Program-made: the position numbers and the translations under genes
In this document: positions 2,099 to 63,883 of the stretch, in pieces
Layout of the letters: the number at the start of each line of letters is the position of its first letter
Position numbering within the stretch: position 1 is the first letter of the stretch
Notes under the pieces: model-generated
What the model saw: the letters and a program-made list of their open reading frames with translations, nothing else
Database searches by the model: none
What the model was told of the DNA's origin: nothing
Virus record (IMG/VR): IMGVR_UViG_3300048599_000097
Span: 1 to 64,000 of that record
Source of the DNA: a virus
DNA: 64,000 nt
Direction: 5' to 3' (one strand)

Positions 2099-2878
2099 AT
2101 GTTAGATATACAAGAAATGCGTGAAAGATTTGAATACAGACCAGAAACAGGAACAATACATCATAAAAAGGATTGGCTACCTTCTACTCATATAGGGGAT
2201 GAGGTTGGAAAGCAAAAAAAGAATAATAGATATTTCATAAAGGTAAAAGATAAGAAGTATTCAAGAGCTAGATTTGGGTGGTTTCTCTATTATGGTGAAT
2301 GGCCTAAAAATGCTTTATCTCATGCAAATGGCGATTGTTTCGATGACAGGTTATGTAATTTAGCTGATGTTGAAGATGTATACGCTTTCAGGAAATCTCA
2401 AGGATTAATACAAGATCCAGAGGTATTTGAGTGGTCTATATATAATTTTAGAAATAAGTTTTTCTATAAAGAGGGATTTTTATATAGAACCAAGGATAAT
2501 TCTATGGTTAAACCCGGAATAGCTGCTGGAGGATATTTGTATGCTAGTATTGGCGGTTTGGTAAAACCCTATACTCATATGATTTGGTACTACTTCAATG
2601 GGGAGTTTCCGCCAAAAGATTTAGAAGTGGATCATATTAACCATGTTAGAGATGATAATAGAATAGAGAACCTAAGACTTCTTACTAGACGGCAAAATTG
2701 TGCTTCTAAAGCCAATAAAACCCATCTCACTGGAGCATTTAAAACGGGGAAAGATCGCTGGACTGCCCGGATATCTGTAAATAAGAAGCATATTAAAATA
2801 GGTTCTGGATATACTTCTGAATTAGAGGCTCATCAAGCCTACCTGAAATACATAGAGGATCATCCAGAATTAAAATAA
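2099..2878 (+). CDS. free-standing HNH homing endonuclease with a C-terminal AP2-like DNA-binding domain
   Basis: Motif EVDHINHVRDDNRIENLRLLTRRQN (HNH). C-terminal RWTARISVNKKHIKIGSGYTSELEAHQAY is AP2-like. Has its own promoter and an AAGGAG SD. Confidence 0.85.
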   Translation: MLDIQEMRERFEYRPETGTIHHKKDWLPSTHIGDEVGKQKKNNRYFIKVKDKKYSRARFGWFLYYGEWPKNALSHANGDCFDDRLCNLADVEDVYAFRKSQGLIQDPEVFEWSIYNFRNKFFYKEGFLYRTKDNSMVKPGIAAGGYLYASIGGLVKPYTHMIWYYFNGEFPPKDLEVDHINHVRDDNRIENLRLLTRRQNCASKANKTHLTGAFKTGKDRWTARISVNKKHIKIGSGYTSELEAHQAYLKYIEDHPELK

Positions 2879-5175: not shown

Positions 5176-5363
5176 AAGTACTCATTACTAATGAGGCCCT
5201 TAATATTGGGAATGGTGTTATTTTGTATAATGCTTCAGTATATTCGGAGGAATTCGGTGGCTATGTAGGATATCTTGAGAATGGAGTGAAGATGGTTATA
5301 GCAACTGAGGATGGGGCTATTATTGTGGAGGATGGTGATGAAGATATTGAGCATCTTCTGTGA
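5172..5363 (+). CDS. hypothetical protein
   Basis: ATGA overlap with the upstream gene. 63 aa. Confidence 0.5.
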   Translation: MKVLITNEALNIGNGVILYNASVYSEEFGGYVGYLENGVKMVIATEDGAIIVEDGDEDIEHLL

Positions 5364-5381
5364 GTTCTTTAAGGCAGTAGG

Positions 5382-5816
5382 TTGGGTGTTTTACCGCAGC
5401 AAGGACAAGCGTTGAACAGGATGTTCTTTAAGCTCAGGGACTACTTGCTCCAGAATATGCACGATGGGTATAATCTCGGAGCAGTAGTTCTTGATAAAGG
5501 TGGTGGGATTCTAGGATGGGGGTTTAATTCCTATGTTAAAACTCATCCTAAGATGTGCCTCAATAAGCATTACAGAGTGGAGCAGATATTCATTCATGCT
5601 GAGGCCGATGCTTTATACTCTCTGAGTGATAAATTGACGCCCCACACCATGCTTATTGCCCGGATTAACAGAAACGGAGATTTCCTTAATGCTCGGCCTT
5701 GCGTCGGGTGTTATGCAGAGATTCAGAAAAGAGGACTCAAGAAGGTTTCGTATACGGTCGGGGCTGACGAAGTAGCAGAGCTGGACATGGGTGTGGATGT
5801 AGATAGTTATTATTAA
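5382..5816 (+). CDS. dCMP / cytidine deaminase family protein
   Basis: Zinc motifs HAEADAL and PCVGCYAEI (HAE...PCxxC). The start is uncertain (TTG 5382 or ATG 5421). Confidence 0.8.
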   Translation: MGVLPQQGQALNRMFFKLRDYLLQNMHDGYNLGAVVLDKGGGILGWGFNSYVKTHPKMCLNKHYRVEQIFIHAEADALYSLSDKLTPHTMLIARINRNGDFLNARPCVGCYAEIQKRGLKKVSYTVGADEVAELDMGVDVDSYY

Positions 5817-5916: not shown

Positions 5917-6642
5917 ATGGAAATAGAGATTAGTGGTTTTAAGGTTTTGATTGATGAAGATGACTATGAGAGGGTTACTGCCCATAAATGGCGTGTAATG
6001 TGGGGGAAGGCAAAGAAAGAGCAGCTGTACTATTTCAGATCTGCCTTCTGGTTGAAAGACAAGAAAGAATATAAGGACACCTTTCTGCATAGATTTATTA
6101 TGGGGTGTACTCATGGGGACGGTAATGTAGTAGACCATAAAAATCACAATACTTTAGATTGCAGGAAAGAGAATCTAAGGATATGTACTCCGACCCAGAA
6201 TACTCAAAATTCTAGGATGTATAGGACAAATAAAATAGGATACAAGGGGATCAAGCAAGATCCCTCCACGGGTCATTGGAGTGCAAGAATACAGACACCA
6301 GACGGGGTTAGATTGTCATTAGGTACTTATAGTTCAGCAGAAGACGCTGCTAAAGCCTATGATAGAGCTTCCTTGGCTTATTTTGGTGAGTATGCAGTTA
6401 CTAATTTCTCTAAAGAGAACTATACAGAATATGACCTGACTCATTTGGATCAGTCAACAGAAATGCCCTCTAAAAGCAACTCCTCTGGATATGTTGGAGT
6501 GACTTGGAGTTCTGTGGGTAAGAATTGGAAAGCGCGTTACATAGATAATGGTAAAACTAAATGGCTTGGTACGTATAAGGATCCATATGATGCCTATCTA
6601 GCTAGAGAGAAATATATAGCAGAACTAAAGGAAGGTAAATAA
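5917..6642 (+). CDS. HNH endonuclease with two AP2-like domains, abutting terL
   Basis: VVDHKNHNTLDCRKENLRICTPTQN (HNH). HWSARIQTPDGVRLSLGTYSSAEDAAKAYD and NWKARYIDNGKTKWLGTYKD are AP2-like. The stop overlaps the terL ATG (TAATG). Confidence 0.85.
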   Translation: MEIEISGFKVLIDEDDYERVTAHKWRVMWGKAKKEQLYYFRSAFWLKDKKEYKDTFLHRFIMGCTHGDGNVVDHKNHNTLDCRKENLRICTPTQNTQNSRMYRTNKIGYKGIKQDPSTGHWSARIQTPDGVRLSLGTYSSAEDAAKAYDRASLAYFGEYAVTNFSKENYTEYDLTHLDQSTEMPSKSNSSGYVGVTWSSVGKNWKARYIDNGKTKWLGTYKDPYDAYLAREKYIAELKEGK

Positions 6643-8054
6643 TGTCACGCAGCTCTCCTTACAACTGGCAGATGGTTCAGAATCTTATAGAGCATCCTCA
6701 CTTAATTGGTTTACTCGCTAACAAAAAACTTTTGACAGAGGAGCATAGTCGTTGGATCATCTGGATGCACAACACGAAAGAAGATTCCCTGCTACAAGCT
6801 AGTCGTGGCTCTTACAAAACAACCGCGGTTATAGAAATTGGAATTATCTATAGACTTATAAGGAATCCCAATGCTACTATGGCAGTATTTCGTAAGAGTT
6901 ATACAGCAGCATCAGAAGTAGTTAAAGCCGTGTGTGAGATCATGGAAACTCCTGCGATAAAGGAACTCCTCACTTTTGTGTGGTTTGCTGATAGGAACGG
7001 GAGAATCCCTGATAAAGCGGAATGGCATTTCACAACCAGAAAAGAGGGGAAGATAAACTTGTCTGTACGAACAGACCATACCCCTGAGTGCACACTAGAG
7101 GCTCTTGGACTAGATTCTCGCGTAATTGGAAGGCACTACAGTGATTGTATTATGTTGGATGATATAACAGACATAAATGATCGCATCTATAAATCTGAAC
7201 GTGAATACACAAAACTCATAGTCTCCGAAGTTAGGGCTAATATTGCCTCTCCCGGATGTGTCTGCCTCTTCACTTCGACTTGCTGGCATGTCTCCGACGC
7301 CCTCGAAGAACTCAAAGCCAACGGCATTCGCCAGAAAGTTCTCCCCTACCAAGTCCTACCATTTATGTCTCCTGAGAAGATTGAGTTAGCTCGTCGTGCA
7401 CAAGGCCCTCTCCTTTTTGCTTGTAACTATGAACTCCGCTTCGACTCTGATGCTGACCGTATCTTTACAGATCCTGTTACAGGCAAATGGGACTTCGCTC
7501 ACGCGAAGAACATTAAAGCACACATAGACGCTGCTTATTCTTCTCCCGGTGACAAAGACAGAGATTATTGCGCTCTTACTATTATGTGTGAGTTACCTAA
7601 CAATAAGATAGGTTGTATAGGATGGATAGAGCAAATTCACGCAAAGGACTGGATCCCGTTTATATTTGAACAGATGGGCAAGTACAAGGCTAAGATACTC
7701 TATGCTGAGGAAAACGGAGATAAGGGCTTCCTGCTGGATCTGATTGCGGGGGATCCTAGGGCAAGGTCTTTGGGTATTTTTACAGAGTCCTATGTGGAGA
7801 AGCAGAATAAGCAAACCAAGATCGCTACTATAGGATATGAGGGATTTAAGAATACAGTGTTTGCTGAAGAGGGTGATCCTATGTATTTGGAGCAGATATT
7901 GTCGTGGAATGAGAAGGATAAGACTATACACGAAGACGCAGTTGATTCCCTTAGTAGCCTTTATCGAGAAGGTGGGTATGTCTCCCTTACTAACTCCATG
8001 AATCTATATAATAGTGATATGTGGAATCAGCAATATGCTGGATTTAGGTTTTAG
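6642..8054 (+). CDS. terL: terminase large subunit
   Basis: 470 aa. Walker A-like ASRGSYKTT, a Walker B region, and C-terminal RNase H-like acidic residues (HIDAAYS, HEDAVDS). Positioned before portal. Confidence 0.9.
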   Translation: MSRSSPYNWQMVQNLIEHPHLIGLLANKKLLTEEHSRWIIWMHNTKEDSLLQASRGSYKTTAVIEIGIIYRLIRNPNATMAVFRKSYTAASEVVKAVCEIMETPAIKELLTFVWFADRNGRIPDKAEWHFTTRKEGKINLSVRTDHTPECTLEALGLDSRVIGRHYSDCIMLDDITDINDRIYKSEREYTKLIVSEVRANIASPGCVCLFTSTCWHVSDALEELKANGIRQKVLPYQVLPFMSPEKIELARRAQGPLLFACNYELRFDSDADRIFTDPVTGKWDFAHAKNIKAHIDAAYSSPGDKDRDYCALTIMCELPNNKIGCIGWIEQIHAKDWIPFIFEQMGKYKAKILYAEENGDKGFLLDLIAGDPRARSLGIFTESYVEKQNKQTKIATIGYEGFKNTVFAEEGDPMYLEQILSWNEKDKTIHEDAVDSLSSLYREGGYVSLTNSMNLYNSDMWNQQYAGFRF

Positions 8055-8093
8055 TGGGTTGGCAGAGAATAAATTCTTTGCATTTTTACCAGT

Positions 8094-8124
8094 GCTCTCC
8101 TTTGCAGGAGGGCTTTTTTGTTTT
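8094..8124 (+). terminator. rho-independent terminator after terL
   Basis: 7-bp stem 8094-8100 / 8107-8113 followed by TTTTTTGTTTT. Confidence 0.7.
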
Positions 8125-8586
8125 ACTTCTATCCTTTGCCTTATCCTAGGTAAGTTACTTATGTACTATAGTTCTGAGGAACCCTGTCTCTGAACACACT
8201 CGTCCCATTCCTAGGAGGTATAGTCCTAAGAGTGGGAGCGTTGGTGTGAAGGTAAGCGTCCTGAGTCGCCCAGCCCTTCCTAGTTAGACAGCACAAGCTA
8301 ACTAATGTCGATTTATCGGGGTTTTCGTGCTCCCCGCAGACTACTATGGCTCGACTATCTACGCTCGTCACCACTTGGTATTTCGTCTGTATTCCATGTC
8401 TGCCACGACATTACACGATATGACACGTTAAGGTTAGCAAAGTTCTCGTGTAAAGATACAAAACCCTTGAAGGGATACTCTGGTGGTTAATCCAGAAATA
8501 CGGCTAACACAACGTATTATAAGTATCCCTTTAAGGGTTTATACACTATGTTAGCTCTGTTACATCTGGGAACCACCCAAATATAG
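8125..8586 (-). ncRNA. candidate large structured ncRNA (unclassified); strand tentative
   Basis: ORF-free and GC-elevated, with many perfect helices: 8411-8418/8446-8453; 8461-8478/8523-8540 closing a three-way junction; 8255-8259/8361-8365 plus 8264-8268/8352-8356 enclosing two hairpins. A promoter (8592-8629) on the - strand points into it. One G-T position in the 18-bp helix would favour the + strand, so orientation is uncertain. Confidence 0.45.
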
Positions 8587-8591
8587 GCAAC

Positions 8592-8629
8592 ATACTAATA
8601 TACTCTACAGAAATGTCAAGTACCCTCAT
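8592..8629 (-). promoter_or_regulatory. promoter family member reading leftward into the ORF-free region
   Basis: The minus strand reads ATGAGGGTAC-TTGACA (8619..8614), 16-nt spacer, TAGTAT (8597..8592). Confidence 0.55.
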
Positions 8630-8640
8630 TACAGCGTTCC

Positions 8641-8688
8641 TATGAGGGGTGTTGACAAAATCATACAGTAGTGTATCCTTTTGTATAC
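8641..8688 (+). promoter_or_regulatory. promoter family member upstream of portal (near-duplicate of 17518-17566)
   Basis: TATGAGGGGTG-TTGACA 8652-8657, 16-nt spacer ending in TG, TATCCT 8674-8679, then TTGTATAC. Confidence 0.6.
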
Positions 8689-8689
8689 A

Positions 8690-10123
8690 ATGCCAGAAAC
8701 AGAAGTCAAGCGGGGTCGTGGACGACCTCCTAAAGCTAAAATAGATCCCGTTGTAGAAAGCACCCCCCATGCTGATGAAGCCTTGTTTGATAGCTCTTAT
8801 TGGTCGAACATGGCCACAGGTCTTGGTCAGAGACAGGACAAGACTGCATGGACTCATTACGGCAACGCTACTATCCTAGATGATTCTGAACTCACCCAGC
8901 TTTGTCTTGGTGATGGTCTTGCTTCTCGTATAGTCAATTCTATCCCCCAAGACGCTACCCGTGAAGGTATCTGGATAGAGGATGAAACCACCAGAAAGAA
9001 AATGGATAGGGAATTCGAGCGTCTTGGTGTAGAGGAAGCTCTTTTCACAGCCCTCTCTTTCCAGCGTCAGTATCGTGGCTCCCTGATTATTATAGGCGCT
9101 ATGGATGGTCGGACTGTAGACCAACCTCTTAACGAGAAAGCAGTTCGTACTGTTGAATTCCTTAAGCCCATTGATGCGACCTGTGTAGACCTTCAGGATT
9201 CTGACTGGGATATGGATCCTATGTCCCCTACCTTTGGCAAGATTATCCGTTATTCTGTTCAGTACTACATTAAAGACACCTATGTACGCTATAAGATACA
9301 CTATACAAGGGTGCTTGAGTTCAAGAATGACCCTGCCCCTACTTGTAACTATGCAGGACTTCTCCAGACTAATAAGTATTGGGGGCTTTCCAGCCTTCAG
9401 GCTATTTATACCTCCTTATCTGCTCTAGGCTCCATTACTCAGAGTACTGTCAACATTATTCTGGACTTCGTTTCTGGTACATACAAATTCAAAAACCTTG
9501 CCTCCCTCCTTGCTGCAGGTGGAGAAACGTCCCTTGCTAAACGCCTTCAGGCTATACAGCTCTCCACCTCAGTCCTTAATGCTCGTGTCATCGACAGTGA
9601 AGAAACATTCTCGAAAGAGTATGCAACCGTCACTGGTATAGATGCACTTATTGACCGATACATGCTTATGCTCTCTGGCTCCACAGGAATCCCTGTAACG
9701 AGGTTGTTTGGTCGTGCTCCCTCTGGACTCAATGCAACAGGTGAAGCTGATTATAATAATTACCTTGACATTGTGCAGTCTTTCCAGAAGAATCGACTCA
9801 AGCCACAAGTTCGTAGACTCCTCACTATCCTCTGCTATGCAAACAAGCTGAATCCTGATGTAGACTTTGAGTTTAATGCTCTTTATCAGATGTCTGAGAT
9901 AGAGAAGGCTAACCTTGCTAAGACTGAAGCCGATACTCAGGCAGTTCTTGTTGACACTAATCTCAGACTTTGTGAGGCTGGTGTCAGGGACTATGAAGCC
10001 TATAGTAAGGAACTTGGTTATGGTGGCGAGTATACAGAGATAGAACCAGACACATCCCCTACTGAACCTCCTGCTGCTACTGAAGGCAAGATGCTTACAG
10101 AAGATGATCTAAAGGCTAAATAA
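8690..10123 (+). CDS. portal protein
   Basis: About 477 aa, positioned after terL, with a portal-like central region. ATG 8690 has no SD and lies about 11 nt after the -10 hexamer, so the mRNA may be leaderless. Confidence 0.8.
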   Translation: MPETEVKRGRGRPPKAKIDPVVESTPHADEALFDSSYWSNMATGLGQRQDKTAWTHYGNATILDDSELTQLCLGDGLASRIVNSIPQDATREGIWIEDETTRKKMDREFERLGVEEALFTALSFQRQYRGSLIIIGAMDGRTVDQPLNEKAVRTVEFLKPIDATCVDLQDSDWDMDPMSPTFGKIIRYSVQYYIKDTYVRYKIHYTRVLEFKNDPAPTCNYAGLLQTNKYWGLSSLQAIYTSLSALGSITQSTVNIILDFVSGTYKFKNLASLLAAGGETSLAKRLQAIQLSTSVLNARVIDSEETFSKEYATVTGIDALIDRYMLMLSGSTGIPVTRLFGRAPSGLNATGEADYNNYLDIVQSFQKNRLKPQVRRLLTILCYANKLNPDVDFEFNALYQMSEIEKANLAKTEADTQAVLVDTNLRLCEAGVRDYEAYSKELGYGGEYTEIEPDTSPTEPPAATEGKMLTEDDLKAK

Positions 10124-11082
10124 TGACCGCCTTTGAGAATAATTTCAAAACATTACTTAAACTCTATCGTTCTGGTATGACTAAAGCACAGCGTACTAGA
10201 ACAAGGCATAGACGCCCTAAGGCACCAACATATCCTTTGGCTATAGAACGTGAGTATGCTAAGTATATATCTAATACAGTCAATAGAACAGCAGATAGTG
10301 CTATAGAATTACTTCGACCATTCCTTATGAAATATACTCCTGCCCATACTGACTCTGTAGATTCAGAACTCGATGATATTATGAGTAAGTTAGAGGAAGA
10401 ACTGGGTGTAATTTATGGCACAAACGCTCTCTCCTCTGGGATGTTGTTTAGGACTCTTGAATCTATAGCAGAACAGATCCTTGGTAAGAATTCAGCATTT
10501 ATGCAAGCAGAAATCAAGATAGTCTCTGGACATGAAATGCAACTGGACTATTCTTGGTGGCCTGAGACTAAGGCTTTATGGGAACAGGAAAACTATAAAC
10601 TCATCACTGGATTAAATGAAGAGTATATTAAGAAATTAAACAGTGTTGTTATCAATGGTGTCCAGAACGGAACTCCTTTTGAGACTTTAGTAGACCAGAT
10701 AAAAGCTGTAAATGATAATATGTCAGATGCTAGAGCTAGACTTATTGCTAGAGACCAGACGGGAAAGTTACAGGGACTTATTTCTAAAGCGCAGCAGACC
10801 TCTATCGGGATGACTGCATACTATTTCATGACAGCACATGATGAGAAAACGCGTGGTAATCCTCGTGGTAAATATCCTAGAGCAATTTCACATTGGGCTT
10901 TAGATGGAATGCTTTGTGCTTGGAGTAATAACAGTGTTTACTCTGATGATTTAGGTGTTACTTGGAAGCAGAGACCGTCTTCATGGATTCATTTGGCACC
11001 GGGAATGGATATACAGTGCCGATGCACCGCCGCAAGCTCATGGTCGTCCTACTTACAAGATATTGACAGGGGGTTGGCATGA
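10123..11082 (+). CDS. head morphogenesis / minor head protein (SPP1 gp7 / Mu F-like)
   Basis: ATG overlaps the portal stop. 319 aa, positioned after portal. The ARLIARDQTGK and C-terminal CRC region are typical of this family (from memory). Confidence 0.65.
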   Translation: MTAFENNFKTLLKLYRSGMTKAQRTRTRHRRPKAPTYPLAIEREYAKYISNTVNRTADSAIELLRPFLMKYTPAHTDSVDSELDDIMSKLEEELGVIYGTNALSSGMLFRTLESIAEQILGKNSAFMQAEIKIVSGHEMQLDYSWWPETKALWEQENYKLITGLNEEYIKKLNSVVINGVQNGTPFETLVDQIKAVNDNMSDARARLIARDQTGKLQGLISKAQQTSIGMTAYYFMTAHDEKTRGNPRGKYPRAISHWALDGMLCAWSNNSVYSDDLGVTWKQRPSSWIHLAPGMDIQCRCTAASSWSSYLQDIDRGLA

Positions 11083-11240
11083 TTTGTCCTCCAGAATTAC
11101 TTCAAGCTATAAAAGAAGCTATAGAGCATATTGATTATGGTTCTGTAGAGATTACTTTGAACTCCAAGGGCAACTGGTTCGAGATCATTACAAAAGAGAA
11201 GCGTCGTCTGGATAAGGACGATATTCATTTTGACGTATGA
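11079..11240 (+). CDS. small protein, YezD/DUF2292-like (53 aa)
   Basis: ATGA overlap. The sequence IDYGSVEITLNSKGNWFEIITKEKRR resembles the YezD family pattern. Not in the ORF track because it is too short. Confidence 0.45.
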   Translation: MICPPELLQAIKEAIEHIDYGSVEITLNSKGNWFEIITKEKRRLDKDDIHFDV

Positions 11241-11284
11241 GGGGTGTTGACAAAAGTATACACAACTGTATGATTTAGTATACA
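11236..11284 (+). promoter_or_regulatory. promoter family member
   Basis: TATGAGGGGTG-TTGACA 11247-11252, 16-nt spacer ending in TG, TATGAT 11269-11274, then TAGTATAC. Confidence 0.65.
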
Positions 11285-11298
11285 CTTTGGAGGACATT

Positions 11299-11352
11299 AT
11301 GCCTTGCGGAACTAAGAAGAAACCAAAGAAGACAGGAACCATTAAGAAATGA
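11299..11352 (+). CDS. 17-aa basic upstream ORF (MPCGTKKKPKKTGTIKK)
   Basis: It carries the only good SD (GGAGG) in this leader. Its stop overlaps the ATG of the protease/scaffold gene (AATGA). Confidence 0.3.
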   Translation: MPCGTKKKPKKTGTIKK

Positions 11353-12539
11353 GAGTAACTAGATATGATACAGCCAAAGGCGATGCTCTTACTTTCCCCG
11401 CCAAGTTTAATGAGGACGGGACTGTAGAAGCTCGTTCTATTATTACTTCGATTGGTGTGTTTCCTTATAAGCTCCCTAATGGAACCATCCGACATGAGCT
11501 TCGCACTCCAGAGGAAGTCTTTTCTAAAGTAAGCCTTGATTCTATGTCTAATATGCCTATCTATGTTGGTCATCAGTATGATTCTAATAAGAAACTGATT
11601 AAAGATGAAGTAAAACGAAAAGAACTTGCAGTGGGCTTCACCTCTGATTCTGTTGTAGGAAATAATGTTTATGTTGCTACTGACCTTAAAGTAACGCGTG
11701 CTGATGGTGTAGAAGCCATTAAACGAGGTATGCAGTCCCTTAGTGTAGGTTATGACTGCGAAGTAATTCCTGAGTCTGGTACTTGGTGTGGGATTCATTA
11801 TGATGCTAAACAGGTGAATATAGTCAACGACCATCTCGCTCTGGTGTGGTGCGGTCGTCAAGGCGATCAAGCTGTGATTCATATGGATAGTGAAGATGCA
11901 ATACTTGTTGATGATGCCGCAGTAGTGGCGGCTGAAGATAAAAACTCTAAGGAGAAGGAAATGGCTAATAAGAGAACCATTCAGCTCGATTCTGTTGACT
12001 ATGAAGCAGATGAAGCTGTAATTGATGCTCTCAAGAAAGTAGAAGCCAGAGCCGACTCGCTTGATGGAGAGCTGAAAGCCGCTGGTGTGGACAAGTCCAA
12101 ACTTGAGGCAGAACGCGATTCTTATAAGGCGAAATTCGACGCTGCTGAACTTGAACTTGAGAACATGAAGAAAGCCCATCTCGATGAATCTGCTATCAAT
12201 GCTCGTGTAGCACAGCGGATCGTTCTGGTGGAGACTGCTAAGAAAGCTGGTGTGGAAGTTAAGGGTGACGAGGCTGACGTTGATCTCAAGAAGGCTGTCA
12301 TTGCTAAGGTCTATGCCGATGTGAAGCTGGAAGGCAAGAACGAGAGCTATATTGATGCTCGTTTTGATTGTGCAGTAGAGGATCTTCCGAAGATGCTCAC
12401 TGCTGGTGCAGATGCTACCGTCCGTGCAGTTGCGGCTCCCGTTGTTAAAGCTGATAGTGCTGATGCAAATCTCGCTGAGGCGGCTCGTCAGCGTATGATC
12501 GATAACCTTTTGAATAAGGGTAAAAAGGAGGGCAAATAA
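11349..12539 (+). CDS. prohead protease/scaffold-like protein (DUF2213-like N-terminus, coiled-coil C-terminus)
   Basis: Lies between the head morphogenesis and capsid genes. The N-terminal 170 aa resemble DUF2213 (from memory). The C-terminal half is A/E/K-rich coiled coil. Confidence 0.55.
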   Translation: MRVTRYDTAKGDALTFPAKFNEDGTVEARSIITSIGVFPYKLPNGTIRHELRTPEEVFSKVSLDSMSNMPIYVGHQYDSNKKLIKDEVKRKELAVGFTSDSVVGNNVYVATDLKVTRADGVEAIKRGMQSLSVGYDCEVIPESGTWCGIHYDAKQVNIVNDHLALVWCGRQGDQAVIHMDSEDAILVDDAAVVAAEDKNSKEKEMANKRTIQLDSVDYEADEAVIDALKKVEARADSLDGELKAAGVDKSKLEAERDSYKAKFDAAELELENMKKAHLDESAINARVAQRIVLVETAKKAGVEVKGDEADVDLKKAVIAKVYADVKLEGKNESYIDARFDCAVEDLPKMLTAGADATVRAVAAPVVKADSADANLAEAARQRMIDNLLNKGKKEGK

Positions 12540-13282
12540 TGGGTGCTTATGGTAATCCTGATGCCGCTATTGCTGGTATGATTGTTGGTGTTCCCAATGC
12601 CGTGGAATCTGCAATCGCCAAAGAAGATATTGCTTACGGTTCTCCGGTTTACGGGCCGGTAGGAGTAGAGAACGTGGCTTATGGCCCTCACAAGGATAAA
12701 GCAACCACTCTTCTGAGTGCTGACCTTGTTACCTCTAACGTAATCACCACCGTCATCAATAGCATTTCGGTTGCATCTACATTTGCTACTGACCATGCTA
12801 CGACTATGACTGCCCATATTGCGGCTATCAATGCTAAGGCAGAGCTTGTTGCCCTTGGTATCACTGCTGTTGCTGGCGCTACTAACCGTGGAATCGTGAT
12901 TTCTGCTCCTGCAGGACTCGATCTTGTTGTTACTCAGGCTGTGACGCTTGGTGGCTCTCAGGCTACTGCGACCATCACCTACGGAACCAATCTTAAGTTC
13001 CTTGGTGCTGCTGCGTTTGTTCAGAACGGCGGTAAGGATTGGGGTGCTGGTACTGCTAAGTGGAAGATCGGTATGTCAGTCAACATTGTTGCTGATGGTA
13101 CTCTGTGGGTTCCTGTCGAGTCCACTGTTGGTGACAAGGATCCTGCTTACGCTGTTATCGGTGGAACGGGTACTCTTGGTAAGTTTAATGATGTTTCTAC
13201 CAATAACTACGACATTGGTAGCTTCTTTCGCTCGAACGTAAACAATGGCCTTGCGATCCTCGAAGTTCGCGGTCTTAAATAA
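12539..13282 (+). CDS. head structural protein (decoration or cement candidate)
   Basis: ATG overlaps the upstream stop. 247 aa, rich in A/G/V/T, immediately before the capsid gene. Confidence 0.45.
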   Translation: MGAYGNPDAAIAGMIVGVPNAVESAIAKEDIAYGSPVYGPVGVENVAYGPHKDKATTLLSADLVTSNVITTVINSISVASTFATDHATTMTAHIAAINAKAELVALGITAVAGATNRGIVISAPAGLDLVVTQAVTLGGSQATATITYGTNLKFLGAAAFVQNGGKDWGAGTAKWKIGMSVNIVADGTLWVPVESTVGDKDPAYAVIGGTGTLGKFNDVSTNNYDIGSFFRSNVNNGLAILEVRGLK

Positions 13283-30074: not shown

Positions 30075-31307
30075 TTGATTAAACGCGAAAATGCCCTTAT
30101 AAAAGCTGACTATGTAAGTAAATATGGGAGGAAAGAGGCTTGTCAACACTTCCACATATCAGAAAGCAAGTTAAATGAATACCTTGCTGTAGCTTCTTAT
30201 GAGGAGAATGAGGAAGAAGTCACAGACGATCTAGTAAAGCTCTCTGCCCAAAAGCAACGTTTAACTGACATCAACAGTGTCATCAAGAAGGAAAACAGAG
30301 AGTCTTATAGGCTCTATAACTCCCTTGATGAAGTCTATAGAGAGTATACTACATTACTGAAATCTTGTCCACTAGCAGATTTCAAAATAGAGCCTATTGG
30401 TGGAATACCAGAAGCAAAGCCTAAATGGGGAATTTTGCAGTTGAGCGATATACACGCGGGAGAAACAATAGACCCCAGAGAATCTAATGGCAACTGTTTT
30501 GATTTCCTCGTATTTGCAAAAAGACTCCAAAAGTTTGTAGCTAGATCCAAGATAGCTTTTAAAGCATCAGGAATAACTAATGTGCTTATAGCAGGTACCG
30601 GAGACTGGATTAACAGCGATAGAAGATTATCTGAGAAGCTGGTTTCTGCTACTACTCGTATAAGAGCATCTTTGCTCACTACATATCTAGTCCAGCAAGC
30701 CATAATAGACTTATCTAAAGACTTCACAGTTGCATTTGCTGGTGTGGTTGGAAATGAGGCACGTTCGCCAGATGATAACTTTGACACAGCAGATGTTCTT
30801 GCCGCTGATAACTTTGACTACCTTATTTACGAACAACTAAAAATGCTGTTTGCCGGAAAACCAGTGACTTTTCCTGAATTGCAGAATCATGTAAATGATG
30901 TAGTGAAACTTCCGAATGGCTTTAATGTCCTTCTGACTCATGGTACTTTCTTTAAGAATTCCCCAGATAGATCCCTTCCCAAGATAGTTCAGAATTATAC
31001 TCTACAGGGAATCCCGATACATATGGCTCTATGCGGACATATACATAGTGCAGCAGTAGGAGATATAGTTAGTCGTTCTGCATCCCTTTGTGGAGGCAAT
31101 TCCTATAGTACCAATGATCTTGGCTGTGCAAGTAGGGCTAGTCAGAACATTTATATCATCAATGAAGACCTCGGATATGATGGCATTAAGATAGACCTTC
31201 AGAACACTGATGGATATGAAGGCTATCATATTATACCCGAGTTAGAGAGATACAACGTCCGCAGTGCTTCCTCTAATACAAAGGTAACAATAACCTCCCT
31301 TGTATGA
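30075..31307 (+). CDS. calcineurin-like metallophosphoesterase with an N-terminal helical extension
   Basis: AGGAGA SD, TTG start. Motifs LSDIHAG, GTGDWINSD, GNEAR, LTHG and CGHIHS. The upstream part of the track ORF lies in the terminator. Confidence 0.65.
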   Translation: MIKRENALIKADYVSKYGRKEACQHFHISESKLNEYLAVASYEENEEEVTDDLVKLSAQKQRLTDINSVIKKENRESYRLYNSLDEVYREYTTLLKSCPLADFKIEPIGGIPEAKPKWGILQLSDIHAGETIDPRESNGNCFDFLVFAKRLQKFVARSKIAFKASGITNVLIAGTGDWINSDRRLSEKLVSATTRIRASLLTTYLVQQAIIDLSKDFTVAFAGVVGNEARSPDDNFDTADVLAADNFDYLIYEQLKMLFAGKPVTFPELQNHVNDVVKLPNGFNVLLTHGTFFKNSPDRSLPKIVQNYTLQGIPIHMALCGHIHSAAVGDIVSRSASLCGGNSYSTNDLGCASRASQNIYIINEDLGYDGIKIDLQNTDGYEGYHIIPELERYNVRSASSNTKVTITSLV

Positions 31308-31350
31308 GGGTTCTTGACAGTTTCCTCCAGAAGTGTATGATTTTGTATAC
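31303..31350 (+). promoter_or_regulatory. promoter family member
   Basis: TATGAGGGTTC-TTGACA 31314-31319, 16-nt spacer ending in TG, TATGAT 31336-31341, then TTGTATAC. Confidence 0.65.
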
Positions 31351-31365
31351 TATTTGGAGGAAACT

Positions 31366-31635
31366 GTGTTCGACTTATTTTCTTGTGTTGCTCTTTGGAT
31401 AGCGGGTGCTCTTATAGTCGCCGGACTCACCCAGTGGACCAAATCCTTCATTAAACTCAAATCCCCACATAAATGGATTTACGGCATTATTTCTGCCGGA
31501 ATAGCCTTCTCTGCAGCTTATGCCGGTGGGGGTACTACTATTCTGTGGAACTTCCTTGGTATTCTTGCTGTATCACAGCTTGGATACGAGCATATAATGC
31601 AGAAGTTCCTATTTAAGAAAACAGAGGAAAAATAG
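31366..31635 (+). CDS. holin candidate (three TM segments, charged C-terminus)
   Basis: GGAGG SD, GTG 31366. 89 aa with three hydrophobic helices and a KKTEEK tail. Confidence 0.55.
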   Translation: MFDLFSCVALWIAGALIVAGLTQWTKSFIKLKSPHKWIYGIISAGIAFSAAYAGGGTTILWNFLGILAVSQLGYEHIMQKFLFKKTEEK

Positions 31636-56771: not shown

Positions 56772-57037
56772 TATACTTCCTCGTGAAATTTGTCTTTAAC
56801 GTGCTGCAGCCATTCCATAACAGCATCTACAGACTTTTCACTCTTAAACAGCAGAGAGTTAAACATCTCCGGTACTATCATCATTTTGTCTGTATCTGTA
56901 ACAGAATCACCACATTCCTTCGGCTCTTCCAAAGCGTAGAACACCAATGCAAAACCCCTATCCTTGATAGGAAATATCTTAGCCGACACCATGCCATCAC
57001 CAAATGGAATAGCCTGTATAGTCTTAGGTTCCTTCAT
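56771..57037 (-). CDS. hypothetical protein
   Basis: ATG 57037 after an AAGGAGGG SD. The stop overlaps the polymerase ATG. Confidence 0.5.
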   Translation of the reverse strand: MKEPKTIQAIPFGDGMVSAKIFPIKDRGFALVFYALEEPKECGDSVTDTDKMMIVPEMFNSLLFKSEKSVDAVMEWLQHVKDKFHEEV

Positions 57038-57108
57038 TAACACCCTCCTTAAAAATAAACACCCCATTTCTGGGATGCTTATATCATAACACAGATTAGA
57101 AACTCTGT

Positions 57109-57351
57109 CTAGTCCTTCACAAAGGCACTCAAGGCACCCTTACTCTGTCCCCCCATCAGCCTACCCACTTCCACCCCATCTTTGTACTTGATGATAGCGG
57201 GTACAGACTGGATATTCAAGAGGATAAGCTCCTCCTCTCCAACGTCATCCAGCAGAATAAACTCAGTCTTAGGTGCCAATTCAGCCATCCAAGGCTTCAT
57301 AATCTTGCAGTTGCCACACCAGCTCGTGCTGTAGAATTTGTATGTGGTCAC
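57109..57351 (-). CDS. thioredoxin/glutaredoxin-like protein
   Basis: WCGNCK active site and SVPAII...G pattern. 80 aa. Confidence 0.7.
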   Translation of the reverse strand: MTTYKFYSTSWCGNCKIMKPWMAELAPKTEFILLDDVGEEELILLNIQSVPAIIKYKDGVEVGRLMGGQSKGALSAFVKD

Positions 57352-63783: not shown

Positions 63784-63801
63784 TTTTAATTCTCCTATAT
63801 A

Positions 63802-63883
63802 GCAGAGTGTGAGATTCGGACTCACGTGACCTTTCGGTACTGCATTACAAGTGCAGTGCAATCGACCGCTATGCGAACTCTGC
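63802..63883 (-). tRNA. tRNA, apparent anticodon UGU (Thr), atypical long variable arm
   Basis: The minus strand reads GCAGAGT-TC-GCA-TAGCGGTCGAT-TGC-A-CTGCA-CTTGTAA-TGCAG-TACCGAAAGGTCAC-GTGAG-TCCGAAT-CTCAC-ACTCTGC. 7-bp acceptor stem, GG in the D loop, U33. The T loop has C where U55 is expected. No encoded CCA. Confidence 0.55.

What the first reader, a model, noticed from the sequence alone, without database searches (positions are those of the whole stretch)
8125..8640. ORF-free, helix-dense ~460-nt region between terL and portal with its own promoter: candidate large structured ncRNA
The 635-bp gap between the terL stop (8054) and the portal ATG (8690) is a large hole in an otherwise tightly packed genome. 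Unlike the other gap (1385-2098) it is not AT-rich. The only ORFs in it (8159..8374 on -, 8305..8490 on +) lack an SD and look random. By hand I can pair many perfect helices. There is an 8-bp helix at 8411-8418/8446-8453. An 18-bp helix at 8461-8478/8523-8540 closes a three-way junction with hairpins 8480-8483/8492-8495 and 8497-8502/8513-8518. A long-range two-part helix, 8255-8259/8361-8365 plus 8264-8268/8352-8356, encloses hairpins 8281-8286/8299-8304 and 8317-8321/8332-8336. Another hairpin sits at 8212-8216/8224-8228. Hairpin loops are also mutually complementary: GGTTAGC 8432-8438 with GCTAAC 8503-8508, and GGTGGTT 8482-8488 with AACCACC 8571-8577. That pattern is typical of ornate tertiary-structured RNAs. 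A promoter of the phage-specific family (ATGAGGGTAC-TTGACA-16-TAGTAT, 8629..8592) fires leftward into this region. This argues for a dedicated transcript antisense to the structural operon. I cannot assign it to a known class by eye. ROOL and GOLLD-type phage RNAs, an ORF-less group I intron relic and a novel class all remain possible.
Basis: partly seen in the sequence, partly recalled or inferred. Interest (0 to 1): 0.8.

Follow-up and report, generated by a model that had tools for sequence, protein, structure and literature searches.

The report
Phage cassette encoding a structured RNA
The protein-free half-kilobase between this phage's terminase and portal genes is a swappable accessory insert with its own conserved promoter and a compact knotted RNA fold; its only known relative keeps that fold through four compensating base changes, but just about a third of the insert is truly structured and its function is unknown.

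Summary
Relatives show that 8055-8639 is an insert in a hypervariable terL|portal slot. The closest relatives have this slot empty, or filled with an HNH endonuclease, a tRNA, a methylase-like gene or other ORFs.

Only one other copy of the insert was found (L025, 94% identity). Twenty-four substitutions separate the two copies, and eight of them form four compensatory pairs (simulation p = 0.003 to 5e-6). The leftward promoter hexamers are intact in both copies.

Folding beyond chance is limited to 8445-8586 (z about -4.5) and one hairpin at 8195-8249. The middle 211 nt fold no better than shuffled sequence. There is no Rfam match (ROOL, GOLLD, OLE and introns included), no protein homology in any of the six frames, and the small ORFs are broken in L025.

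Best reading (0.5): an ORF-less moron encoding a new small or medium RNA, transcribed leftward. It would have a 5' hairpin at the start site, a three-way junction tied by a covarying pseudoknot, and a U-rich tail. Strand, ends and function are inferred, not shown.

The "large ornate 460-nt RNA" reading is only partly supported.

The parts
6642..8054 (+). terL (large terminase), left flank of the slot
   Evidence: PHROG terminase large subunit, 4e-36. It ends at the same residue (…GFRF*) as in relatives.
8055..8125 (+). Emptied cargo remnant. It holds a decayed promoter (GGGTTGGCAGAGAATAA, 8056-8072) and an intrinsic terminator (stem 8094-8113 plus T-run to 8123). It is absent from L025.
   Evidence: 8056-8072 matches the L012 cargo promoter GGGTTGACAGAGAATAA at 16 of 17 positions. 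The terminator was found by the scan. The alignment shows L025 lacks this stretch.
8126..8249 (.). Left module, with long hairpin A (8195-8249; core 8203-8216/8224-8237). It is shared with L025 and with L007/L026.
   Evidence: L007 bases 1-91 are 90% identical to 8158-8248. In L007 and L026 the hairpin is followed by TTTTTT, so it works there as a + strand terminator, and then by an HNH cassette. The closing pair 8216/8224 is A-T in the window and T-A in L025 and L007. Fold z is -4.2/-4.7.
8250..8639 (-). The ORF-less cassette proper. It has the same boundaries as the HNH cassette of L007.
   Evidence: Alignments. Six-frame search found no protein homology. GC skew is -0.14, like this phage's minus-strand genes (-0.18) and unlike its plus-strand genes (+0.08).
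8592..8629 (-). Leftward promoter ATGAGGGTAC-TTGACA-16-TAGTAT. The predicted start site is near 8585.
   Evidence: Exact match to the family motif. It scores 10 of 12 against the sigma-70 consensus. In L025 the hexamers and the ATGAGGG box are intact, and the only two substitutions fall in the spacer.
8561..8585 (-). P1: a 10-bp hairpin at the predicted 5' end. It forms only on the - strand and includes two G-U pairs.
   Evidence: -11.8 kcal/mol with z -3.2 on the - strand, against 4 bp with z -0.4 on the + strand. It is identical in L025.
8461..8540 (-). Three-way junction. It consists of the 18-bp helix P2 (8461-8478/8523-8540), which encloses hairpins 8480-8483/8492-8495 and 8497-8502/8513-8518.
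   Evidence: The inverted repeat is 95% complementary. The helices were verified. It is retained in L025 with wobble or helix-end changes only. Fold z for 8445-8586 is -4.5, and -4.9 for L025.
8503..8555 (-). Pseudoknot between the hairpin loop 8503-8508 (GCTAAC) and 8550-8555 (GTTAGC), which lies outside P2.
   Evidence: This is inverted repeat I5, found before L025 was known. L025 has GCTAGT/ACTAGC, so two adjacent pairs changed on both sides and stayed Watson-Crick.
8450..8463 (-). U-rich tract after P2 on the - strand (GGGUUUUGUAUCUUUAC). It is a possible terminator tail and would give an RNA of about 135 nt.
   Evidence: Read directly from the sequence. The terminator scan does not report it, because the 'loop' is a 42-nt branched insert. 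This is inference.
8317..8336 (.). Hairpin B: CGGGG-N10-CCCCG.
   Evidence: 8318 G>A and 8335 C>T are the only two differences from L025 in 235 nt, and they pair with each other (G-C becomes A-U).
8411..8453 (.). Hairpin C: a perfect 8-bp stem, 8411-8418/8446-8453.
   Evidence: Verified. It is invariant between the two copies, so there is no comparative test.
8642..8679 (+). Portal promoter (ATGAGGGGTG-TTGACA-16-TATCCT). It forms the right border of the slot, back to back with the cassette promoter.
   Evidence: It is 98-100% conserved in relatives that keep this promoter, whatever the slot holds; more diverged in L024 (about 80%), absent upstream of the portal in L003/L009.
8690..10123 (+). 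Portal gene, right flank of the slot.
   Evidence: PHROG portal protein, 2e-89.

Best explanation
Window 8250-8639 is an ORF-less accessory cassette (a 'moron') sitting in a recombination-prone cargo slot between terL and portal. Its left-hand neighbour, hairpin module 8126-8249, may also belong to it.

The cassette brings its own promoter of the phage's ATGAGGG-N3-TTGACA type. That promoter fires leftward, against the structural operon, and makes a non-coding RNA.

The RNA begins near 8585 with a 10-bp 5' hairpin. It then folds into a compact three-way junction. One inner loop of the junction pairs with the upstream linker to form a pseudoknot. The other inner loop can kiss the loop of the 5' hairpin. 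A U-rich tract after the long helix may stop most transcripts at about 135 nt, and read-through would add the weakly structured 8250-8446 and hairpin A.

No extended complementarity to the rest of the 64-kb window was found, and the closest relatives do without the cassette. I therefore infer a dispensable, trans-acting, shape-dependent RNA, such as a protein-binding or decoy RNA (for example a modulator of host or defence factors), and not an antisense regulator.

Shown: the insert status, absence of coding, promoter conservation and base-pair covariation. Inferred: the strand, the ends, that it is transcribed at all, and the function.
For: Insert status:
- Relatives with 90-99% identical portals have terL abutting the portal promoter, or carry unrelated cargo in the slot.

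Non-coding:
- No hits for any six-frame piece.
- The small ORFs are truncated in L025, and the only two substitutions in the 61-aa ORF are both non-synonymous.

Structure under constraint:
- Eight of the 24 substitutions against L025 form 4 compensatory pairs.
- In the proposed model 98% of cells are paired, against 35-52% when partners are slid.
- Fold z is about -4.5 to -4.9 in both copies.

Promoter:
- It belongs to a family enriched about 9-fold over chance.
- The hexamers and the ATGAGGG box are unchanged in L025, while the spacer changed twice.

Evidence for the minus strand:
- The 5' hairpin exists only on that strand and starts at the predicted start site.
- The L025 domain is 11 kcal/mol more stable on the - strand.
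- The L025 changes at 8524 and 8540 are G-U-compatible only on the - strand.
- The cassette's GC skew matches minus-strand genes.
Against: - Only two full copies exist in everything I could search, so covariation rests on one pairwise comparison and R-scape-type statistics are impossible.
- Window-L025 divergence is a recombination patchwork. Coding blocks of more than 300 nt are also near-identical, so the high identity of the middle part is not evidence of selection.
- The middle 211 nt fold no better than shuffles.
- Strand evidence is mixed. 8469 G-T in the window and 8463 in L025 favour the + strand. The whole-region z is stronger on the + strand. In the window the core domain folds equally well on both strands.
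- No canonical terminator is predicted on the - strand.
- Compensatory changes in inverted repeats can arise at the DNA level by template switching, without any selection on RNA.
- There are no expression data.
Confidence: 0.5

Rival explanations
1. Recombination scar or junk. The slot collects leftovers of swapped cassettes: old terminators, a stray inverted half-promoter and palindromes. Nothing in it is a functional RNA gene. Its 'structure' is just terminator hairpins and inverted repeats, and the paired changes come from DNA-level quasi-palindrome correction or from imported patches.
For: - 8055-8125 is visibly an emptied cassette.
- Hairpin A is a terminator in L007.
- The slot turns over rapidly, and the closest terL relative (92% identical) has it empty.
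- Divergence is mosaic.
- The middle part is not structured.
- The element is extremely rare.
Against: - Four compensatory pairs in three separate helices among only 24 substitutions.
- The promoter motifs are intact in both copies.
- A start-site-proximal hairpin and two loop-to-linker complementarities fit one compact fold.
- GCTAAC/GTTAGC occurs 4 times within 259 nt, against 18 times in 128 kb of both strands.
Confidence: 0.2
2. A plus-strand cis element. The structured region is part of the terL-portal transcript, as a 3' UTR or intercistronic spacer. It would act in processing, stability, attenuation or decoupling of terL and portal expression.
For: - In L025 the element follows the terL stop codon with no terminator, so it would be co-transcribed.
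- The whole-region fold z is stronger on the + strand (-4.4 against -2.6).
- Hairpin A is a + strand terminator in L007.
- The G-U pair at 8469/8532 works only on the + strand.
Against: - In the window a strong terminator (8094-8123) sits between terL and the element, and no + strand promoter follows it.
- The portal has its own promoter downstream of the element.
- The 5' hairpin and the L025 changes favour the - strand.
- Most relatives need no such element.
Confidence: 0.12
3. A DNA-level element, such as a protein-binding or replication/packaging-related site, or a decoy that destroys a homing-endonuclease target. The two CCCTTNAAGGG palindromes and other inverted repeats would act as duplex or extruded DNA.
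For: - Two 11-bp near-palindromes lie 63 bp apart and occur nowhere else in the window.
- The slot alternates with HNH endonuclease cassettes at identical boundaries.
- Covariation cannot distinguish DNA hairpins from RNA hairpins.
Against: - Two palindrome hits equal the chance expectation for the window.
- The pseudoknot-type covariation between 8503-8508 and 8550-8555 and the strand-specific 5' hairpin are hard to explain for duplex DNA.
- The element is dispensable in close relatives, so it is not an essential ori or pac site.
Confidence: 0.08
4. A decayed protein gene, for example a dead homing endonuclease.
For: - Neighbouring alleles of the slot carry HNH genes.
- The window has HNH genes at 2099-2878 and 5917-6642.
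Against: - tblastn with two of the slot cargo proteins (L007 HNH, L004 110-aa ORF) finds nothing in the insert; the HNH-AP2 and other cargoes were not queried this way.
- No six-frame piece of 25 aa or more hits 5.8 billion proteins, Pfam or PHROGs, even at E = 1-10.
- The substitution pattern is paired, not codon-like.
Confidence: 0.03
5. A member of a known large RNA class: ROOL, GOLLD, OLE, HEARO, phi29-type pRNA, or a group I/II intron relic.
For: - Phage context.
- A three-way junction with complementary loops.
- A tRNA gene occupies the same slot in L020, and ROOL and GOLLD often lie near tRNAs (PMC12286853).
Against: - cmscan of both copies with permissive filters and E up to 10 returns only sub-threshold miRNA or isrD noise.
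- The supported core is about 140 nt, not 580-800 nt.
- terL and portal are intact, so there is no interrupted host gene for an intron.
Confidence: 0.02

Closest known systems
Phage 'morons' that encode small RNAs, such as the prophage sRNAs DicF and IpeX and the anti-sRNAs AgvB/AsxR of lambdoid prophages (from my own knowledge, not tested here)
   Same: It is an extra transcription unit with its own promoter, inserted between two genes that are adjacent in related phages. It is dispensable, present in some genomes and absent in others, and has no ORF.
   Different: There is no sequence or Rfam relationship, and no recognisable seed complementarity to a target in the window. The RNA core is a pseudoknotted three-way junction, not a simple Hfq-type sRNA. 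It lies inside the late structural operon and points against it.
Free-standing HNH homing-endonuclease cassettes ('intronless homing') between conserved phage genes
   Same: It occupies exactly the same slot and boundaries (after 8249, before 8640) as the promoter-SD-HNH cassette of L007/L026. It is self-contained with its own promoter.
   Different: It encodes no endonuclease or any other protein.
phi29-type packaging RNA (pRNA)
   Same: A phage RNA built on a three-way junction with two loops carrying complementary GGUU/AACC-type sequences. It sits in the packaging-gene neighbourhood, between terminase and portal.
   Different: There is no match to any Rfam model, including pRNA. This phage has a classical TerL terminase. 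The element is absent from the closest relatives, so it cannot be an essential part of the packaging motor.
ROOL and GOLLD large ornate phage/prophage RNAs (PMC12286853; PMC5737381)
   Same: Phage-borne, function unknown, and rich in pseudoknots and kissing loops. The same slot holds a tRNA in one relative.
   Different: No Rfam hit. The supported core is much smaller. The middle 200 nt are unstructured by the shuffle test. Only two copies are known, so 'ornate' covariation cannot be assessed.
Rho-independent terminators
   Same: Hairpin A is followed by a T-run in L007. 8094-8123 is a textbook terminator. P2 is followed by a U-rich tract on the - strand.
   Different: Hairpin A lacks the T-run in the window and in L025. 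P2 encloses a 42-nt branched insert and takes part in a pseudoknot, which simple terminators do not.

Membership tests
Any Rfam 15 family (ROOL, GOLLD, OLE, HEARO, group I/II introns, pRNA, 6S, tmRNA and the rest) | Covariance-model score at or above the family's gathering threshold | tested here: not met
   The whole window at gathering threshold gave only a tRNA at 63801. 7950-8800 and L025 100-800 at E up to 10 gave only noise hits at 13-21 bits against thresholds of 37-249.
Moron (accessory transcription unit in a phage genome) | Inserted between genes that are adjacent in related phages | tested here: met
   In L001, L005 and L019 the terL stop is directly followed by the portal promoter.
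Moron (accessory transcription unit in a phage genome) | Own promoter and own terminator | tested here: inconclusive
   The promoter is present and conserved. A terminator on the transcribed (-) strand is only a U-rich tract after a branched helix, and the scan does not call it.
Bacterial/phage sRNA gene | A discrete transcript with defined 5' and 3' ends | not testable with these tools
   No expression data are available. The start site is inferred from the -10 at 8597..8592.
Structured ncRNA (evolutionarily conserved secondary structure) | Statistically supported covariation of base pairs | tested here: inconclusive
   There are four compensatory pairs, with P = 0.003 to 5e-6 by my simulation. 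They come from a single pairwise comparison, so the shuffle control has no power with two sequences.
Protein-coding gene or pseudogene | An ORF with homologues, or a codon-like substitution pattern | tested here: not met
   Substitutions are paired or non-synonymous, and indels shift both candidate ORFs.
Group I/II intron | Interrupts a host gene whose exons rejoin in frame | tested here: not met
   terL and portal are full-length and end and start at the same residues as in relatives that lack the insert.
MITE or transposon-like mobile element | Terminal inverted repeats and a target-site duplication | tested here: not met
   There is no terminal inverted repeat at the 8126/8250 and 8639 ends. 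The only boundary repeat (AGCGTT…, D1) is not kept in L025.

The most novel reading that the evidence does not exclude
A new class of phage-borne structured RNA that travels as a protein-free mobile cassette and competes for the same terL|portal slot as homing endonucleases, tRNAs and methylases. Its core is a three-way junction locked by a pseudoknot and a kissing loop. Four interspersed GCTAAC/GTTAGC boxes could mediate alternative folds or self-assembly. It could act as a decoy or modulator of a host defence or RNA-binding factor during late infection.
Probability: 0.3. Interest if true: 0.65.

Novelty: new variant of a known kind. Interest (0 to 1): 0.5.

Why it matters
Cargo slots in phage structural operons are usually discussed in terms of proteins such as homing endonucleases, methylases and anti-defence genes. 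Here the same slot, with the same boundaries, carries nothing but a promoter and a folded RNA. If the RNA is real, RNA-only cargo is exchanged among phages like protein morons, and there would be a compact new fold to test for anti-defence or regulatory activity. If it is not real, the locus is still a clean example of how fast a terL|portal junction turns over, and of how inverted-repeat debris can mimic an ncRNA.

Tried and rejected
Searches for more copies:
- blastn of the insert against INPHARED phages and PLSDB plasmids found no match.
- Six exact k-mer scans of IMG/VR, using helix, loop and invariant segments, gave 0 hits.
- The single genome-contig scan returned only a chance 20-mer match in a high-GC Pedosphaera MAG (L018).
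- Portal and terL searches in IMG/VR, JGI metagenomes and the 5.8-billion-protein set, followed by 12 contig look-ups, gave about 20 relatives. Only L025 carries the element.
- A covariance model of the 148-nt core (R1) found no further copy in the window or in 21 loci.

Coding hypothesis:
- Tests were a concatenated six-frame query against 5.8 billion proteins, Pfam and PHROGs, plus tblastn with the cargo proteins of relatives. All were negative.

Conservation argument:
- I first read the 0.9% divergence of 8225-8459, against 23% at portal third codon positions, as purifying selection.
- I dropped this because coding blocks are just as identical in this mosaic pair.

Global MFE structures of the 516-nt region:
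- I rejected them as models. Eight single-sided substitutions break pairs of the + strand MFE, and the long-range pairs differ between strands.

Antisense target search:
- Only chance-level 13-mers match elsewhere in the window.

Source contig:
- The window's terL is not on record, and the 100%-identical portal (P0021, JGI, 79-kb contig) could not be retrieved.
Full report
**What is at the coordinates**

terL (6642-8054) and portal (8690-10123) are confirmed by PHROG profiles (4e-36 and 2e-89). They are separated by 635 bp. The gap has no ORF longer than 71 aa.

The one exception is the loop pairing 8432-8438/8503-8508, which is a 6-bp match (8433-8438) and not 7 bp.

The leftward promoter-like site ATGAGGGTAC-TTGACA-16-TAGTAT (8629..8592) is real. 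The motif ATGAGGGNNNTTGACA occurs 16 times in the window at up to 2 mismatches, against 1.7 expected. Exact copies lie in front of the portal (8642) and at 11237, 17519 and 31304. The site scores 10 of 12 against the sigma-70 consensus.

**Is the folding more than chance?**

Only partly.

- The 516-nt stretch gives z = -4.4 on the + strand and -2.6 on the - strand.
- Split up, 8445-8586 gives z -4.5 (-) and -4.9 (+).
- Hairpin 8190-8252 gives z -4.2 and -4.7.
- The 211 nt in between (8250-8460) give z +0.9 and +0.6, which is indistinguishable from shuffled sequence. This stretch hosts the proposed long-range two-part helix.
- Measured against the phage itself (300-nt windows, MFE regressed on GC), 8401-8750 is the most stable window on the - strand and the third on the + strand, at about 2.7 sd. 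That is an outlier but not an extreme one.

**It is an insert in a cargo slot**

No phage in GenBank is close; the best terL identity is about 31%. Metagenomic relatives with 90-99% identical portals were recovered.

In L001, L005 and L019 the terL stop codon is followed at once by CTATGAGGGGTGTTGACA…, the portal promoter, which corresponds to window 8640-8690. L019 carries the closest terL, at 92% identity. Window 8055-8639 is therefore an insertion.

Other relatives fill the same slot with different cargo:

- a 110-aa ORF with its own promoter and terminator (L004/L012);
- a 205-aa HNH endonuclease (L007/L026);
- an HNH-AP2 endonuclease plus three large genes (L013, L003, L024, L028, L029);
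- a tRNA-Leu plus an ORF (L020);
- a methylase-like gene with a terminator (L023).

The slot is thus a hot spot of cassette exchange.

**Anatomy of the window's insert**

- **8055-8125** is a leftover. GGGTTGGCAGAGAATAA (8056-8072) is a decayed copy of the L012 cargo promoter. It is followed by a textbook terminator, with stem 8094-8113 and a T-run. This piece is missing from L025.
- **8126-8249** is a left module ending in long hairpin A. L007 and L026 share it at 90% identity. There the hairpin is followed by TTTTTT, so it acts as a + strand terminator, and then by the HNH cassette.
- **8250-8639** is the cassette proper. It has exactly the same boundaries as the L007 HNH cassette.

**It is not coding**

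- The cargo proteins of relatives find nothing in the insert.
- All six-frame pieces of 25 aa or more, concatenated into one query, have no hit with E ≤ 1 among 5.8 billion proteins.
- The same pieces have no Pfam or PHROG hit with E ≤ 10.
- In L025 the 71-aa minus-strand ORF shrinks to 50 aa and the 61-aa plus-strand ORF to 52 aa. The only two substitutions in the 61-aa ORF are both non-synonymous.

**The one homologue**

L025 (ENA ERZ807357, portal 95.6% identical) carries the element. Its bases 173-733 align to window 8130-8690 at 94% over 564 nt. No other copy was found by k-mer scans, by blastn or by a covariance model.

Between 8130 and 8632 the two copies differ by 24 substitutions and a few indels. 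Eight of the substitutions form four compensatory pairs:

| Pair | Change (window → L025) | Note |
|---|---|---|
| 8216/8224 | A-T → T-A | Also T-A in L007 |
| 8318/8335 | G-C → A-T | The only two differences in 235 nt |
| 8507/8551 and 8508/8550 | GCTAAC/GTTAGC → GCTAGT/ACTAGC | Two adjacent pairs |

I simulated 24 random substitutions. The chance of four or more, once the inverted repeat reported is added, is 5e-6. That repeat was found before L025 was known.

The remaining changes in the 18-bp helix are wobble-compatible or sit at the helix ends.

Two caveats apply. This is a single pairwise comparison. Also, template switching in inverted repeats can produce paired changes at the DNA level.

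**A conservation argument I withdrew**

The element is about 5% diverged, and only 0.9% in 8225-8459. Portal third codon positions differ by 23%. But the window-L025 alignment is a patchwork throughout. A coding block at 11882-12220 also has no more than 2 differences, while neighbouring blocks differ by 35-50%. High identity here may therefore just mean a recent recombination patch.

**Which strand?**

For the minus strand:

- The promoter hexamers and the ATGAGGG box are unchanged in L025, while its spacer changed twice.
- A 10-bp hairpin (8585-8561, with two G-U pairs) forms only on the - strand (z -3.2 against -0.4) and starts at the predicted start site.
- The L025 core is 11 kcal/mol more stable on the - strand.
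- The L025 changes at 8524 and 8540 are G-U only on the - strand.
- The cassette's GC skew (-0.14) matches minus-strand genes (-0.18 ± 0.09) and not plus-strand genes (+0.08 ± 0.10).

For the plus strand:

- The G-T pair at 8469/8532 in the window and the 8463 change in L025 favour it.
- The whole-region z is stronger on the + strand.
- L025 has no terminator after terL, so the element would be co-transcribed.

I put the minus strand at roughly 2:1.

**Working model (minus strand)**

- Start near 8585.
- P1 hairpin, 8585-8561.
- Linker box GCUAAC (8555-8550), pairing with the loop GUUAGC (8508-8503) of an inner hairpin. This is the covarying pseudoknot.
- P2, an 18-bp helix (8540-8523/8478-8461) closing a three-way junction with hairpins 8518-8497 and 8495-8480.
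- The loop of the latter hairpin (AACCA) is complementary to the P1 loop (UGGUU). This is invariant, so it is untested.
- Then GGGUUUUGUAUCUUUAC, a possible terminator tail, giving an RNA of about 135 nt.

In this model 98% of cells pair, against 35-52% when partners are slid by 1-3 columns.

GCTAAC or its complement occurs four times within 259 nt (8297, 8433, 8503, 8550), compared with 18 times in the whole window on both strands. This hints at alternative or intermolecular pairings.

**Comparison with known things**

Neither copy matches any Rfam 15 family, even at E ≤ 10. ROOL, GOLLD and OLE profiles are part of Rfam, and those RNAs are phage- or prophage-borne and often lie near tRNAs (PMC12286853). 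Membership is not met.

- It is not an intron, because terL and portal are intact.
- It is not a MITE, because there are no terminal repeats.
- Functionally it behaves like a moron: its own promoter, placement between genes that are adjacent in relatives, and dispensability.
- In position it behaves like the free-standing HNH cassettes it alternates with.
- The three-way junction with complementary loops, next to the packaging genes, recalls phi29 pRNA. However, there is no model match, the phage has a classical TerL, and the closest relatives lack the element.

**Verdict**

- The best explanation (about 0.5) is an ORF-less cassette encoding a new, compact, pseudoknotted RNA transcribed leftward from a phage-type promoter. 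Its function is unknown, and I infer a dispensable, shape-dependent, trans-acting role.
- The main rival (about 0.2) is recombination debris whose inverted repeats mimic an ncRNA.
- A plus-strand cis element is about 0.12.
- A DNA-level site is about 0.08.
- A dead gene is about 0.03.
- A known RNA class is about 0.02.

Interest is moderate. The signal is real but narrow, only two copies are known, and there are no expression data.

Noticed in passing
window 8054/8640 junction; loci L001, L004, L007, L013, L020, L023, L024, L025: The terL|portal junction is a hypervariable cargo slot. In phages whose portals are 90-99% identical it is empty, or holds a 110-aa ORF, an HNH endonuclease, an HNH-AP2 endonuclease plus three large genes, a tRNA-Leu(tag) plus an ORF, a methylase-like gene, or the ORF-less element.
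   Followed up: yes
window 8642, 11237, 17519, 31304 (+), 8614-8629 (-), and 11 looser sites: There is a phage-specific promoter family with a conserved ATGAGGG box 3 nt upstream of TTGACA (16 sites against 1.7 expected). The four exact plus-strand copies also share a TG-TAT(C/G)NT -10 element and a GTATAC palindrome just downstream. This could be an activator or operator site for late genes.
   Followed up: partly
window 8674-8692: The portal ATG (8690) lies about 11 nt after the -10 hexamer and has no Shine-Dalgarno sequence, whereas most other genes have GGAGG. The portal mRNA may be leaderless or nearly so.
   Followed up: no
window 8056-8123: A decayed copy of the cargo promoter seen in L012 (TTGACA has become TTGGCA) is followed by a strong terminator. 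It looks like a cargo cassette whose gene has been deleted.
   Followed up: partly
window 7891-12558 vs L025: Divergence between the two phages is a patchwork. Blocks that differ by 35-50% adjoin blocks of more than 300 nt that are nearly identical, inside coding genes (for example 11882-12220). This indicates very frequent recombination in the population.
   Followed up: partly
window 2099-2878 and 5917-6642; L013 about 1840-2520: The phage carries several free-standing HNH endonuclease genes. The HNH-AP2 gene that lies upstream of terL in the window appears downstream of terL in L013, consistent with mobile homing cassettes.
   Followed up: partly
window 8297, 8433, 8503, 8550: The hexamer GCTAAC or its complement occurs four times within 259 nt in alternating orientation, against 18 times in the whole window on both strands. 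Only the 8503/8550 pair has a covariation test. The role of the other two copies is unexplained.
   Followed up: partly
window 8165-8194 (-): A second, weaker leftward promoter-like site (TTCAGA-18-TATAGT) lies immediately after hairpin A. It is kept in L025 and L007 with a 17-nt spacer, and it would transcribe antisense into terL.
   Followed up: no
window about 31301-31600 (+), 5251-5700 (+), 57001-57350 (-): These are other 300-nt windows whose folding energy is as far below the genome trend as the finding's (about 2.6-3 sd). They were not examined.
   Followed up: no
window 63801-63883 (-): A tRNA-Thr (tgt) gene, the only Rfam or ARAGORN hit in the window.
   Followed up: no
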